From positions 78,492,001-78,556,000 of the forward strand of contig NC_042999.1 of the NCBI RefSeq assembly GCF_006345805.1: a stretch of DNA of 64,000 nucleotides, written 5' to 3'. The translations under genes and the position numbers were made by a program. The DNA comes from Octopus sinensis (taxonomy: Eukaryota). Position 1 is the stretch's first letter. Every line of letters starts with the position of its first letter. Below, in pieces: positions 1 through 36,761 of the stretch. A model generated the notes under the pieces. It saw only the letters and a list, made by a program, of their open reading frames with translations. It made no database searches and was not told where the DNA came from.

Positions 1-457
1 CTGTTTAATGGTAAACTAACCTGATTAAATTAAATCAAGCCAATCTTCCATAGGCCCTTAGAATCATCAGTAGAAATAGCCAAGTCGGAACAGATATTTT
101 CACGAGGCATTTCCGTCCCTGCCTCGGCAATATCTGACCTAAAATTTTCAAATCATCGCACTCGCGCCAAATTTATCGGCAGCAAATAAATATAAGCCGC
201 CGATTCCATTACGGAATTAACCAGAAAATTCATAATTAATCAATATAGGGTGGCAAAAAATTTTGTAGAATTTTTTTGCCACCAGCGGCCTAGTGGGAAA
301 AAGTTAAATAGTCATAGACCATTTTTAAGTTCAACATCACAATCAAGGAACGGCCATAATAGGCCATTCACCCACTAGAAATAACAGCCAATGCTTCAAC
401 CGCAAAATAACATCAATTCCGTAAACCAGGAGAAAATTAAAAAACATTTACCCTGTA

Positions 458-564
458 ATTTCTTATACGATGCACCGTTTCATCTACTGTTTAATGGTAA
501 ACTAACCTGATTAAATTAAATCAAGCCAATCTTCCATAGGCCCTTAGAATCATCAGTAAGAAAT
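458..564 (-). ncRNA. Type I hammerhead ribozyme (array copy)
   Basis: Minus strand reads AUUUCUUA-CUGAUGA-[long stem II]-GAAAC-GGUGCAUC-GUA^UAAGAAAU. Perfect 8-bp stem I (557-564 with 458-465), intact core (550-556 and 477-481), quasi-palindromic stem III, GUA cleavage triplet at 468-466. Confidence 0.85.
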
Positions 565-944
565 AGCCAAGTCGGAACAGATATTTTCACGAGGCATTTC
601 CGTCCCTGCCTCGGCAATATATGACCTAAAATTTTCAAATCATCGCACTCGCGCCAAATTTATCGGCAGCAAATAAATATAAGCCGCCGATTCCATTACG
701 GAATTAACCAGAAAATTCATAATTAATCAATATAGGGTGGCAAAAAATTTTGTAGAATTTTTTTGCCACCAGCGGTCTAGTGGGAAAAAGTTAAATAGTC
801 ATAGACCATTTTTAAGTTCAACATCACAATCAAGGAACGGCCATAATAGGCCATTCACCCACTAGAAATAACAGCCAATGCTTCAACCGCAAAATAACAT
901 CAATTCCGTAAACCAGGAGAAAATTAAAAAACATTTACCCTGTA

Positions 945-1051
945 ATTTCTTATACGATGCACCGTTTCATCTACTGTTTAATGGTAAACTAACCTGATTA
1001 AATTAAATCAAGCCAATCTTCCATAGGCCCTTAGAATCATCAGTAAGAAAT
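945..1051 (-). ncRNA. Type I hammerhead ribozyme (array copy)
   Basis: Same sequence as the 458-564 copy, shifted by 487 bp. CUGAUGA at 1043-1037; predicted cleavage between 953 and 952. Confidence 0.85.
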
Positions 1052-2439
1052 AGCCAAGTCGGAACAGATATTTTCACGAGGCATTTCCGTCCCTGCCTCG
1101 GCAATATCAAGCGCGTGTCAGCAACTTGGCTACGCTGAGTTAGAATCCTGATTGAAGGCTATGCGTGCAAAGGCTTATAAAGCAGAAGTTAAAACGAACT
1201 TGGAGAGGCACTACTAAAGAGTTGACTTCACGACATGTCAACAGAATACACTCAAGACAGCTATAAAAATACAAGCAAGATGTCGAACCCTGTAAGCTAA
1301 CGAAACACTTAAGAGGGAACCTTTACGTGTTGGCTCAGGTTACAAGAAATAGCAGCCAAATTTCCCTGAGTTCCTTGCTGAAAAATAATCCACATTGAAT
1401 AATGTGATCTAGAGTTACATAGTGTCTGAGAAGATGGCGGGAATGTCCTTTTCCGTATGTCCACTCGATCTGGGCTAAGGGCTGCATTGGATCTAAACAA
1501 CAATAAAGAAGCACTCAACAATGTTCTTTTGCTTTGTATTTACAACCGTGAATCACGCCTAGAGTGTGGGTAGCAGCTATCAGTTTTCTCGGGTTTCATA
1601 AACATATAGTTAGAAAATCATCTGAGAATTATTTTAGGAGACGAACTCATCACAATGCATCTCATAAAACGATATGGATCTCTGATCAGTCATATAAATC
1701 GCTACTCTCAATACAGCAATCAACTTTTTTCTTCTTCATTCACCCTAGAAAACTTACCCAACCAGTTTATTTTAGATTCTGTTCGTCTTCCATTTTCACA
1801 GGAAATTTCTTCCCTTTTTTTAATTCCACTACAACGGTTCAGGTAACTTACTTAAAAAACGCTACTGTTCAGCTCTTTAACAATTGCATTCAACACAGAT
1901 AATTTGCTATAACACAGATCTCTCTAGTCTCTTCTGTTGACCTTAAGATCGTTAGTTGGCGTCAAAACATTGAGCATGAAGCTTTACTTTATTTACGACT
2001 AGTCAATAAAAATAGCAGGTAATCTCCCAAATATTACCACTACAGAAAACTTATTTTGTCTCAGAATTCTAAATACGATTTTCCAATAATCACAGAGCTC
2101 ATACCTGTATTATACGGAAAACCCATGTCACTCTTATGAGTTATTAAACAAAAATGATTTCCCCATATTTCTTAATGATAAAAAAACAACCAAAAACTCA
2201 TGCAATAATTTATTTCGAAAGTAATGACAAAAACCGTTTTTTAATAAAATAAAATTAAAAAGAAAATGTTTAAAAAGAGATTTTATCATAGGTAAACACA
2301 GGCATTAATCCTAGATGTGTTATGTCAAAAGAAAAAAAAGACAAGACGGTTACGGTTGGAAAGCTTTCGGTCACGATTAGAAACCCATTTTGCGAAATCT
2401 TGCAATCATCGGCAACTCTTAGACCAATATATCTTCCTT

Positions 2440-3090
2440 TATCGAGGACATCTATCCCACTCCAATCGCTCTCCGAAGTCATCTTCCTCAATGATTTCAA
2501 TGTCTACAATTATTCTTGGATCACACATTCATCCCATACTCGATGTTGTTAGTGTACAAACCAAATACTTCACAATTCTCAACTTTATACAATTAATTTT
2601 GTTCCCTACATTCATCCATGACCAAATACCCTTGATCCCTTGCTGTGAAGTCTTGGTCATCACGAACTTATTACGACTGTGGGATAAACTTTCTGTAACT
2701 TCTTGACGGTTGCATAACTCGCTGCTATTCGTAAAGGACCGATGGATCACGCAGTCTGTATTTGTACTGAAAATGGAGATTGAACGAGCTTTTACTCCTT
2801 GGCTCAACATGTGGTTTTTGTTGACATTGAACTCGCTTTGTGATGCCTGCGTCATCGTTTGGTAGACGTACTGCTTCGCTCAAACTCTCCGGTCACTGTT
2901 TCCAACCAAGAGTCGTGCATCGGTTGCATTGGAGCCTGTGAAAGCACATGGCTTGCAGTACATGCTTTGTACCAGATATTAAAAAAAAACTGTTCGATGA
3001 CGGTTCAATTCCATTCCTACGGAATGTACGAAGAAACTTTTCTAGTGACGGGTTTTCGTCGTCTCCGAGGCGCCTAATATTCGACAAGCA
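2440..3090 (+). mobile_element. Decayed LINE (Jockey/CR1-group) AP-endonuclease and linker remnant
   Basis: Fragments SEVIFLNDFNVYNYSWITHSSHT and FTILNFIQLILFPTFIHD resemble the GDFN..W and L.QLV..PTRIPD motifs of LINE endonucleases. Frameshifted. Confidence 0.5.
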
Positions 3091-19535: not shown

Positions 19536-19950
19536 AGATAATGGTGTCATTGAGACCCAAAGGTGTCAGGTAATGCTGAATAAGTGCTATAGACAGACCA
19601 TAGTTAAGTTCCAGATTCGGTAATATTGCGAATAAAGGGTTCAACCTTGGTTTTATGTCAGCGTGTGTATATATGAATTTTTTGTGTAATGAGATAAAAA
19701 ACCCCCAAAGGCTGTATAGATATTAGAGCATTTATAGATAAAAGGTCTTACAGGATATTATTACACATACACGCAGAGAGACACACATATTCACCTCATC
19801 CTAACCCCAAAATCATTGATGCTTGAAGGAAAGCCAAAAAAAGAAAAAAACGGGTACATCTTTTTCAATTCTACATTTCTGCTAAAACGGACAGGTCAGT
19901 AAACAAGCTCGCCTTGAATTCATAATATTCTGTACTGACCCTGAGATGTA

Positions 19951-20238
19951 TAATATATTTGTTTTAATCTTTTCTGCCCATTTTTTCAAATATTCTCATC
20001 ATACTGTTGTACTTTCTTATGTCCTTAACATGTCCTTGTTACCAAAGACTGTATATATACATGCAATGTGGCAATTTGCAACAACCAATAATTAACGCAA
20101 CCAAACTTCCAATAATATATTTGTTTTATTCTTTTCTGCCCATTTTTTCAAATATTCTCATCACACTGTTGTACTTCTTTATGTCCTTAACATGTCCCTG
20201 TTACCAAAGACTGTATATATACATGTAATGTGGCAATT
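19951..20238. repeat. Direct duplication of ~126 bp (162-bp period)
   Basis: taatatatttgtttt...gactgtatatatacatg..atgtggcaatt occurs at 19951 and 20113. Confidence 0.85.
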
Positions 20239-20489
20239 ATGTAAAAAAAATTTTTGAATTCATAATATTCTATGTTACTTTTGACAATCTTTTTCCAAAG
20301 AGTGAAACCGGTTAAGCAAATAAACATCTTTCAAATTGCATTTTCAAACCTTCTTTCGTATATAATTCCACTCGTGCGATACCCCACAACTCAACTTTGT
20401 TATATATATATATATATATATTAGACAGAATGAGATAACAAATCCAAGGCTGTAAGTTCCAATAGCAGCTCATGTTTAGTCATCTATTT

Positions 20490-20559
20490 CCTGGACCATG
20501 GTTTCAGACTTTTTTTTAGCAAATAAAATAATTTACTAGGCAAAGTCTTCGTCAACAGG
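20490..20559 (-). ncRNA. Hammerhead ribozyme-like motif (C3U variant) in a solitary relative of the 487-bp unit
   Basis: Minus strand: CCUG-UUGACGA-AGACUUU...AAAGUCU-GAAAC-CAUG-GUC^CAGG. Stems I and II are perfect and stem III is the palindrome ACCAUGGU. Adjacent 20580-20776 is homologous to the array unit. Confidence 0.7.
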
Positions 20560-21396
20560 TACACCAAGATTAAACATATAAGTACGAGGCTAATCCAGTA
20601 TGTGCCTCTTGCTTATACATTTTAATTTTTTTCAAATCCACCGCGCAAGCGCAGTTTTTTGTTGGCGGCAAAAAAATACTGGCAATTTCTTCGAACGATT
20701 TTCCAGAAATCATTATACATAATTAATAATATCAGGGTAATAAAGATTTTAGAAATTTTCACTACCAGTGGTCTAGCGTATAGCTGCTGCATTCATTGCA
20801 CATACCAGTAACGCCCCCTCCCCATACAGATATAATAAAGGAAGAAAGATCCTTCCCGGACCATAGTTCAGAAAGGCGGTTTCCCTCTGATTGGGACGTT
20901 GGTTCGATGTAGGATTACTAAATTTTGCCAACGGAGTGGACTTGGAGTAAGAACACCACGCATTGCCTGGTGCAGGAATCAAAACCACAATCTTAAGATC
21001 ATGAGTGCAACATTCTAACCACTAAGCTACACACTTCTACACACATATACATATAAAAAAAAAATACGAAAATTATGAGTTGAGGAGGTTTTGAAGGTAC
21101 TGTAACAGCTATGGGTATTACTTCCCTTTCTCAAATTAACTAAAGAAAAGATAAGACCGCTAACGTGCCTTTCCTGTCACTCGTTTCCTCTCTCTCAACA
21201 TTGGTTGCTGTGTCAAGTGGGTGCCAACACCTAAATCTCTTGTCTTACTATTCTCTCTCTCTCACACACACACACACAAACTTTCTCTCACTCTCACACA
21301 CATTTTATCTCTCACATACATTCTCTCTCTCTCTCTTACACACACACTCTCTCTCTCTCTCTTACACACACATACAGGCATTTTCTCTCATACTTC

Positions 21397-35237: not shown

Positions 35238-36645
35238 GTGACTGAATCAAAGAAGGAAAACCAACTCATCTGTTATCACATTATTTGGAAGTCTTTAAAC
35301 ATGGAGTTCATTCCACAAAGTTGTTTCTACATGGATAATGCTTATTGGTATGGAGGCCCGGAACTAATGCAACCTATGTATCCTATTGAGAAAGGAACTT
35401 TCTCATGGACATCATTTGTACCAGGTTTCAACCCTAGTGACAGCCAAAGTAACCAGTCCATGGGACCAGTTGTAGAACGCTACTGGATTAATTCTCAAGG
35501 AGCTGGTATTGCAGTTGATAACTCCATAGCCCTTCATACCAGTATGAATTACAAATTTGAGAATAAACTCTGTTTTAAGGCCGTCATTAGTGATCACAGT
35601 CTCCCTACTCTCAGCTATACAGTGTGCAAAGCCAGCAATGTACGAAATGTACACGACTACATGAGGAAAAGTATATTTGAAAATCCTACTGCATCTCCAG
35701 TTGATTTAATAGGCAAACCTCTTTGGACAACTGAAGAATATTTCGGGAGTTCAATAGACCAACAAAAATACTTATGGTATGCTGATAAAATTACTAAAAC
35801 TGGTTTTTACAATTCACAAATCCAACTTGATACGTATTCTTCTGTGGTTGGTGATACTACAGTCTCTTCAATTAAGTTTCCAAACTCACATCAAATGTTT
35901 GGTCAAATGAAAGAGTTGAAACTTTATGTACGTCTCAAAGTGTGTATGTGTGCTAGTCCTGATGTATCTTATTTTGCTGAGGGAAAAGAGAAAGGATTCT
36001 GGCTAGTAGACAAGAAAAGCAAAGCAATAGCAATGAGTTCATCAAAAGATGGAATGGTAGCATTGGTGGATTTCACAAATCCTGATGCTGTGAAATGGTA
36101 CCAAGACAAAATATCTCTCTTTGGAAAAGATTATGGTATACAGGCTTTTACATTTGATTTTAATGAGATTCACAATTTGCCACTTACGGTCTCATTCAAA
36201 AGTATTTTTAAAACTCCTGCTGATTACTTGACAAAAAGCTCTGAAGTTGTTTCTTTCATTGATCAAAATGCTATAATCAAATTTGGCTTCCAGTCTCAAC
36301 ATTTTCCAATATTCATTGAAGCAGTTCCAAAAAACATGACCTGGGATTATAACAGTGGCTTAAAAAATGTCATTCCAAACATGCTAACTTTAGGAATTCT
36401 TGGTTTTCCATTCATTGTACCAAGTGCTATTGGGGGTACAAACTATACTGGGACACTGCCTGCAAGCAAAGAACTGTTTATTCGTTGGGCACAGATGGTC
36501 AGTTATTTTCCTATTATGCACTTCTCTGTCCCGCCGTGGCACTATGATGAAGAAACTGTGCATATTACACAAAACCTAGTCAAGCACCATCAACAGAACA
36601 TTGCTCCTTTAATAAAGCATTTAATGAAAGAAGCAGAAGTTACAG
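35238..36645 (+). CDS. MYORG: MYORG-like GH31 glycosidase, coding exon 2 (beta-sandwich plus TIM barrel)
   Basis: Acceptor ttttag|GTG, phase 0. 1408 nt open frame with motifs WYGGPE, VVERYWINS.G, VDFTNPDAVKWY, F.FD..E, GLKNVIP..LTLGILGFPF and ELFIRW. Donor ACAG|GTAATA at 36645. Confidence 0.95.
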
Positions 36646-36761
36646 GTAATATAGTTTTTTCAAATGTTTTCTGAAATATATATATATGTGTGTGTGTGTG
36701 CATGTGTGTGTGTACATGTATGTATATGTATGTGTATATATGTGTGTGTGTGTATATATAT

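What the first reader, a model, noticed from the sequence alone, without database searches (positions are those of the whole stretch)
20490..20776. Diverged solitary relative of the array unit whose hammerhead stems are fully rewritten but still paired
Seen in sequence: the module order matches the array unit. First comes the hammerhead, then a gaggc/gcctc hairpin, then ttttcaaatc..cgc...gcgc, then cataattaat..aatat.agggt...tagaa.tttt...accag.ggtctag. The hammerhead has different helices (stem I CCUG/CAGG; stem II AGACUUU/AAAGUCU extended by UAGUAAAU/AUUUGCUA; palindromic stem III ACCAUGGU; GUC triplet) around a core with a single C3U change. Inference: conserved fold with diverged sequence supports a real, older and dispersed ribozyme-bearing family. 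It is independent evidence that the array motif is not chance.
Basis: partly seen in the sequence, partly recalled or inferred. Interest (0 to 1): 0.7.

Follow-up and report, generated by a model that had tools for sequence, protein, structure and literature searches.

The report
Older sister hammerhead retrozyme fragment
This is a broken 303-base piece of a scattered, protein-free jumping repeat, the older sister of the array at the window's start; it carries a predicted self-cutting RNA fold whose odd core base is the family norm, and intact copies of both sisters end at the same two places, which likely mark where a borrowed Penelope-type enzyme starts copying them.

Summary
Real and homologous, but not solitary. 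20481-20783 is a doubly truncated piece of a 470-nt dispersed tandem family (B; 2288 candidates, 40 scored, about 85-92% identical), sister (about 72%) to the young 487-nt array family A. The type I hammerhead is on the MINUS strand. U3 is the family state (33 of 37 copies; 109 vs 26 exact genome matches), not this copy's mutation; stem I is half changed, not fully rewritten; the hammerhead alone aligns only weakly. Both families insert into (TA)n as two inverted arms ending at two homologous sites about 100 nt apart (A 17 of 19; B 14 of 28, 10 with a degraded end): the Penelope two-start 'tail' signature. Each A insertion carries one haplotype on both arms. Best reading: non-LTR retrozyme, likely copied by a Penelope-type (Neptune-like) reverse transcriptase. 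This copy is fused by microhomology to two pieces of an unrelated hammerhead family. No autonomous partner found among 50 loci; cleavage and expression untested. The scan already noted the two-armed pattern on other families of this genome. New member of a known kind; interest 0.33.

The parts
20481..20783 (-). Fragment of family B (positions 168-470 of the 470-nt L004 monomer; in RNA order from inside the tail, through the hammerhead, to 13 nt past the cut site); lacks both normal 3' ends
20490..20559 (-). Type I hammerhead motif: 4-bp stem I, core UUGACGA (U3 at 20555, G8), long interrupted stem II, GAAA, palindromic stem III ACCAUGGU, predicted cut between 20494 and 20493
   Evidence: (z -2.8, 1 of 200 shuffles)
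20586..20608 (-). GAGGC/GCCUC hairpin shared with the array unit, core of a longer predicted helix upstream of stem I
20736..20766 (-). Conserved hairpin just before the outer 3' end site; 9 pairs, 2 changed on both sides and 1 on one side between families A and B
20718..20727 (-). Outer 3' end site (S2, AUUAAUUAU) at which sister copies stop and join (TA)n; run through in this copy
20453..20483 (-). 31-nt internal piece of unrelated hammerhead family D; shares CAT (20481-20483) with the B piece
   Evidence: (167 matches at up to 3 mismatches)
20422..20456 (-). 3'-terminal piece of family D; joined to the next D piece at a shared TAAG with about 240 nt, D's own hammerhead included, missing
20401..20422 (.). 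(TA)n target shared by the D-B chimera (right) and a family C copy (left)
1..1107 (-). Family A array (487-nt units, canonical CUGAUGA hammerheads cutting after 953 and 466); single-armed; its 3' end lies 258 nt before the window start, in (TA)n; end sites fall at about 823/336 (S1) and 719/232 (S2)
   Evidence: (L135)

Best explanation
The stretch is a truncated copy of a 470-nt protein-free tandem repeat family with a type I hammerhead motif, the older sister of the 487-nt array family, and it likely spread as a non-LTR retrozyme copied by a Penelope-type reverse transcriptase. Shown: homology around nearly the whole unit, dispersed tandem and inverted copies, (TA)n flanks, two homologous 3' end sites about 100 nt apart with one at each end of a two-armed insertion, one haplotype per family A insertion, U3 as the family state. 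Inferred mechanism: tandem transcripts are cut by hammerhead dimers (palindromic stem III) and probably circularised; a Penelope-type RT-endonuclease binds the conserved branched structure downstream of the cut site, nicks both strands of a (TA)n tract, primes one strand at each of two internal start sites and runs round the template, leaving back-to-back arms. The U3.G8 wobble would slow but probably not abolish cutting. This copy has lost both end sites and is predicted to be inert; it sits in one strand-consistent chain (TA)n - D end - D middle - B joined at 3-4 nt microhomologies, somewhat more likely made by template jumps of one reverse transcriptase (about 55%) than by two later deletions.
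For: Homology: (71% over 527 columns). Family and tandems of 457-473 nt period. Ends: family A 17 of 19 two-armed insertions end one at 130-131 and one at 231-240 nt past the cut site; family B 28 of 45 loci two-armed, 14 S1/S2, 2 just past S1/S2, 2 S1/S1, 0 S2/S2, 10 with one non-canonical end; the sites align between A and B. PMC11167929 (parts 1-2 of 4 read) shows a Penelope RT starting at two internal sites that delimit the tail, after cutting AT-rich DNA on both strands; PMC8557442 (passages) describes inverted 5'-truncated copies, a tail at one end and (TA)n bias. Single template: A units differ 0.46% across arms of one insertion, 0.93% within an arm, 1.57% between insertions, with insertion-specific variants on both arms (64 full units). 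Structure: majority monomers fold as circles at z -6.6 and -4.9, 0 of 40 shuffles. Enzyme source exists: 147 GIY-YIG matches and a 636-aa RT + GIY-YIG frame with a CX4CX2C linker. Internal skips occur in other B insertions.
Against: No autonomous element sharing sequence with A or B among 50 GIY-YIG loci examined of 147 matches / 5029 candidates. Cleavage, circles and expression are not shown. The compensatory-change test depends on the alignment (broken pairs p <0.001 to 0.11; double changes kept p 0.007 to 0.66). B's stem I is only 4 bp and the predicted folds do not form the full three-way junction. Ten of 28 two-armed B loci lack one canonical end, and B's inner site is loose (135-148). 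A homogeneous linear multimer would give the same haplotype pattern as a circle. 8 of 9 retrozyme dimers tested in the 2026 preprint did not cleave. The 20 A regions were my pick where arrays were visible.
Confidence: 0.82

Rival explanations
1. Family B's hammerhead is dead: U3.G8 plus an A.A mismatch under stem II and a 4-bp stem I abolish cutting, and B spread as uncut linear multimers or by borrowing cuts from rare C3 units; the ribozyme is a passenger.
For: U3 in 109 of 135 exact matches; A.A in 23 of 37 copies; hammerhead mutants did not reduce insertion by the anole Penelope RT in vitro; B arrays seen here are short (mostly 1-2 units) against up to 15 for A; C3 is commoner than background T-to-C change predicts (4 of 37, p 0.007).
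Against: UGA, GA, GAAA, the palindrome and UC are otherwise near-invariant in B; a natural U3/G8 core with an upstream insertion is mentioned as a functional candidate (PMC7151607 passage); a mismatch under stem II is tolerated in an axolotl retrozyme and in natural variants; B loci were only +/-1.5 kb and older arrays decay.
Confidence: 0.3
2. A and B are solo or tandem pseudo-LTRs shed by coding Penelope elements and were never mobile on their own.
For: 5'-truncated Penelope copies leave lone terminal repeats (PMC4209133, parts 1-2 read); same end signature.
Against: Units run head-to-tail up to 15 times with no reading frame between them; no coding sequence adjoins any B or A locus in the BLAST maps; no match to 50 GIY-YIG loci.
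Confidence: 0.08
3. A satellite DNA spread by DNA-level recombination or rolling circles, with the ribozyme look incidental.
For: Tandem organisation; the 2026 preprint allows local amplification.
Against: Fixed 3' ends with variable 5' ends, inversions at the 5' junction, (TA)n on both sides and strand-biased folding (sense -146/-119 vs antisense -106/-108 kcal/mol) fit target-primed reverse transcription; conserved catalytic core.
Confidence: 0.04
4. The D-D-B chain at this locus arose by two microhomology-mediated deletions after separate D and B insertions, not by template switching.
For: 3-4 nt microhomologies are also typical of end-joining deletions (established knowledge); (TA)n tracts collect many insertions (three families meet here).
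Against: All three pieces lie on one strand in the order one cDNA would give, starting at D's own 3' end on (TA)n; skips are frequent inside B insertions.
Confidence: 0.45

Closest known systems
Metazoan non-LTR retrozymes (Cervera and De la Pena 2020, PMC7229834: passages and part 3 of 6 read; Li, Clavereau and Pollet 2026, bioRxiv 10.64898/2026.07.22.740005: parts 1-3 of 5 read)
   Same: Non-coding, AT-rich, self-paired tandem units with one type I hammerhead each, dispersed monomers and multimers, weak stem III predicting dimer cleavage, mismatch under stem II as in axolotl HHR_Amex2, coexistence with Penelope elements.
   Different: Units of 470-487 nt are above the 170-400 nt circles of the 2020 paper (within the 51-972 range of the preprint); family-wide U3.G8 core; two-armed (TA)n insertions with two fixed ends are not described in the parts I read; RNA circles not shown here; no cephalopod among the preprint's species as described.
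Penelope-like element pseudo-LTRs and their insertion signature (PMC4209133; PMC8557442; PMC11167929), Neptune/Nematis-type linker
   Same: Type I hammerhead with short stem I, long stem II, palindromic stem III; partial tandems; inverted 5'-truncated arm; tail at one end; two internal start sites downstream of the ribozyme; AT-rich targets.
   Different: No reading frame; tail about 100 nt instead of 30-40; described core variant there is U3-A8, not U3.G8; G10.1-C11.1 is replaced by A.A, A-U or U.U; parent element not found.

Membership tests
Non-LTR retrozyme | Non-coding tandem units of a few hundred bases | tested here: met
   470-nt period in L004, L017, L018, L026; no frame of 120 aa or more over 20481-20783 or 1-1107
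Non-LTR retrozyme | One type I hammerhead motif per unit | tested here: met
   37 B hammerheads aligned; A core CUGAUGA in 76 of 78. B fails the strict C3 consensus in 33 of 37; Rfam gathering finds none
Non-LTR retrozyme | Dispersed copies, no LTRs | tested here: met
Non-LTR retrozyme | Highly self-paired monomer | tested here: met
   circular folding z -4.9 (B), -6.6 (A), 40 shuffles each
Non-LTR retrozyme | Self-cleavage in vitro | not testable with these tools
   needs transcription assay
Non-LTR retrozyme | Linear and circular monomer RNAs in tissue | not testable with these tools
   only assembled contigs of runs of unrecorded kind were available
Penelope-mobilised element | Inverted 5'-truncated arm and tail at one end only (two start sites) | tested here: met
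   A 17 of 19; B 14 (16 loosely) of 28, 0 S2/S2
Penelope-mobilised element | AT-rich / (TA)n targets | tested here: met
   flanks printed
Penelope-mobilised element | Sequence shared with the pseudo-LTR of a coding Penelope element in the same genome | tested here: inconclusive
   none among 50 of 147 GIY-YIG matches; most of 5029 candidates unseen
Autonomous Penelope-like element | RT and GIY-YIG reading frame between the repeats | tested here: not met
   units abut directly

The most novel reading that the evidence does not exclude
Family B is a retrozyme lineage that kept amplifying, through several subfamilies, after its hammerhead took an uncompensated U3.G8 core, while the roughly 100-nt two-start tail and the branched structure around it stayed conserved across a 28% split: the tail, not the ribozyme, is the licence for Penelope-type reverse transcriptase, and that one enzyme jumps between unrelated retrozyme RNAs, as the D-B chimera at this locus would record.
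Probability: 0.3. Interest if true: 0.58.

Novelty: new member of a known kind. Interest (0 to 1): 0.33.

Why it matters
How animal retrozymes are mobilised is still called unresolved in the 2026 preprint. A pair of sister families with homologous start sites and compensatory changes in the intervening structure gives a defined, short RNA substrate for testing recognition by a Penelope-type RT, and natural C3 and U3 copies give a ready test of whether cleavage matters for spread. The class, dimer cleavage and the two-start tail are in print, and this scan has noted the two-armed pattern on several other families in this genome, so the gain from this copy is comparative, not a new system. Searches for octopus + hammerhead ribozyme, retrozyme + cephalopod terms, retrozyme + inverted/microsatellite/template switch and hammerhead + C3U listed no paper whose title or abstract start describes these families; subscription journals and repeat libraries were not searchable.

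Tried and rejected
Rfam at gathering thresholds: no hammerhead hit, only a 28S-like fragment. Autonomous partner: BLAST and local alignment of A and B against 30 + 20 GIY-YIG loci gave only chance AT-rich words; two of the 30 (L070, L071) look like a host nuclease gene, not a Penelope element (recalled motif). Expression: no RNA holder listed; contigs of runs only guessed to be RNA cover family A and little of B and show no starts, ends or circles; not used as evidence. C3 as a separate subfamily: not supported, 8 changes against 8.2 for shuffled labels on a poorly resolved 39-row tree, so polarity rests on family A and the canonical core only; C3U is not a CpG site. A target-site duplication around the fragment: not found; the apparent 23-nt filler turned out to be family D; the right flank is unique. 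Homology of families C or D to A/B: scores within shuffle range. MAFFT cannot align A and B hammerheads, so stem comparisons there are by hand. Papers on U3.G8 kinetics and on dimer cleavage of small variants (Lunse 2017, Przybilski and Hammann 2007, Nelson and Uhlenbeck 2008) were not held; that a lone C3U lowers the rate is recalled. The preprint's supplements could not be seen and may list relevant families.

Full report
Observation. Window 20486-20776 aligns with 458-780 at 203 of 277 aligned columns; the score is 114 against 28.3 +/- 4.6 for 1000 dinucleotide shuffles, none as high. The signal comes from the non-ribozyme part (99; 0 of 1000); the hammerhead part alone scores 30 (10 of 1000). 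The hammerhead is type I and lies on the minus strand, as do those of the array. It folds at z -2.8, but Rfam's gathering thresholds detect neither. Against the array unit, stem I keeps 2 of 4 pairs and swaps 2 from U-A to C-G; stem III is a different palindrome (ACCAUGGU against ACGGUGCAUCGU); stem II differs.

What it is. A search of the genome (2.7 Gb; 'octopus' is the label in the scan's earlier notes and my recall of its repeats, not a result of mine) returned 2288 candidates, 40 scored, mostly 85-92% identical. Sister copies continue beyond both ends of the window piece, which is positions 168-470 of a 470-nt unit that occurs in tandem and in inversions. I call this family B and the 487-nt array family A (1431 candidates, top copies 96-99%). 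They align around nearly the whole unit at 71-72%. Copies depart from their majority by 9.2% (B) and 1.1% (A), so B is older.

The core. U3 is in 33 of 37 B hammerheads, G8 in 35; the base closing stem II gives A.A in 23 and A-U in 13. Exact patterns find 109 U3 and 26 C3 places genome-wide; several of the 26 are duplicates of one insertion. The nearest-copy sample is biased towards the window copy, the pattern counts less so. C3 is not clustered on a weak tree (8 changes, shuffled 8.2) and is somewhat commoner than background T-to-C change (p 0.007). So B amplified mostly as U3.G8, and natural 'revertants' exist. Family A has CUGAUGA in 76 of 78. Published core variants in Penelope elements are U3-A8 (PMC4209133, parts 1-2; PMC3088659, section 8); a natural U3/G8 case is mentioned in PMC7151607 (passage). 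Stem III of B is unfavourable as a hairpin (+2.9) and stable as a self-duplex (-11.2 kcal/mol), which predicts dimer cleavage as described for such motifs.

Insertion signature. Counting from the cut site, 19 of 20 family A regions that I picked have two inverted arms with 3' ends outward in (TA)n; 17 of the 19 end once at 130-131 and once at 231-240. Of 45 B loci (window copy and 9 duplicates left out), 28 are two-armed: 14 S1/S2, 2 just past S1 with S2, 2 S1/S1, none S2/S2, 10 with one other end; 17 show one arm within 1.5 kb (8 S1, 6 S2, 3 other). The sites are homologous (A130 with B148, A234 with B245). Between them lie a small GUC/GAC hairpin and a 9-pair hairpin with two double changes (in effect one A-against-B comparison). 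Mapping each family's predicted fold onto the other, fewer pairs break than when the same changes are placed at random in 4 of 6 settings (p 0.005 or less; 0.06 and 0.11 with the loosest gaps). This matches the two internal start sites that delimit the tail of an anole Penelope element (PMC11167929) and the inverted arm, one-ended tail and (TA)n bias of these elements (PMC8557442), with a tail of about 100 nt instead of 30-40. I had this reading before consulting the scan's notes, which report the same pattern for other families in this genome; no note matched A or B by sequence.

Template. In family A, variants private to an insertion recur in all units and on both arms (for example L131, L130, L133); units differ 0.46% across arms, 0.93% within an arm and 1.57% between insertions. 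That fits repeated copying of one circle, or of a homogeneous multimer.

This copy. It has neither end site. Leftwards (downstream in RNA sense) it joins, at a shared CAT, a 31-nt inner piece of an unrelated hammerhead family D, which joins at a shared TAAG the last 35 nt of D, which ends on (TA)n; about 240 nt of D with its hammerhead are missing. The right flank is unique. One cDNA primed on a D RNA and jumping twice would give this order and strand; two later deletions would too. A third family, C, ends on the other side of the same (TA)n.

Enzyme. The genome holds many GIY-YIG elements, including a 636-aa RT + GIY-YIG frame with a CX4CX2C linker of Neptune/Nematis type. None of 50 loci examined shares sequence with A or B, so the partner is unidentified.

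Comparison and verdict. It meets the sequence-level features of metazoan non-LTR retrozymes (PMC7229834; bioRxiv 10.64898/2026.07.22.740005) and the Penelope insertion signature; cleavage and RNA circles are untested, and no RNA run on record was available. It is a new member of a known kind. Its value is comparative: conserved paired start sites and structure across a 28% split, a family-wide U3.G8 core with natural C3 controls, and a possible cross-family chimera. Interest 0.33; the boldest open reading has probability 0.3 and would deserve 0.58.

Noticed in passing
window about 19759-20421 (+); hammerhead core 20281-20287, GAAA 20304-20307: A younger repeat family C (2801 candidates, 40 scored, mostly 95-98%) with a U3-A8 hammerhead and palindromic AACCGGUU, an internal 162-nt duplication, and two end sites 57 nt apart (20364 and about 20401-20421) in inverted copies; it ends on the same (TA)n as the D-B chimera.
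   Followed up: partly
window 20422-20483; full copies in L175, L193, L194: Family D: canonical CUGAUGA hammerhead with palindromic ACAGCUGU and an A.A mismatch under stem II, like most B copies though unrelated in sequence.
   Followed up: partly
L129 and L122 (family A arrays): Variants alternate between successive units (L129: C217A+C351G, G327T, C217A+C351G, G327T; L122: C481A in units 1 and 3), hinting at dimer-length templates.
   Followed up: no
L017 and L025: Two units of one B insertion differ at C3/U3: mixed template or later mutation.
   Followed up: no
window 2691-2914 (-): Decayed 28S rRNA-like fragment (66 bits) with only 70-87% partial relatives elsewhere in the assembly (19 matches); probably an old pseudogene piece.
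   Followed up: partly
L067, L068, L077, L081-L083: The commonest coding Penelope family among the GIY-YIG hits (19 of 30 loci) carries a U3-A8 hammerhead with ACAUGU palindrome about 600 nt after the nuclease domain.
   Followed up: no
window 35238-36674 (+): 478-aa open frame with a glycosyl hydrolase family 31 domain (E 1e-21).
   Followed up: no
runs X19 and X20 (two organism labels): Family B contigs are abundant in both (971 and 1051 laid) and no change at the U3 position 20555 reaches the 10% listing threshold, so U3 appears to dominate there too.
   Followed up: no
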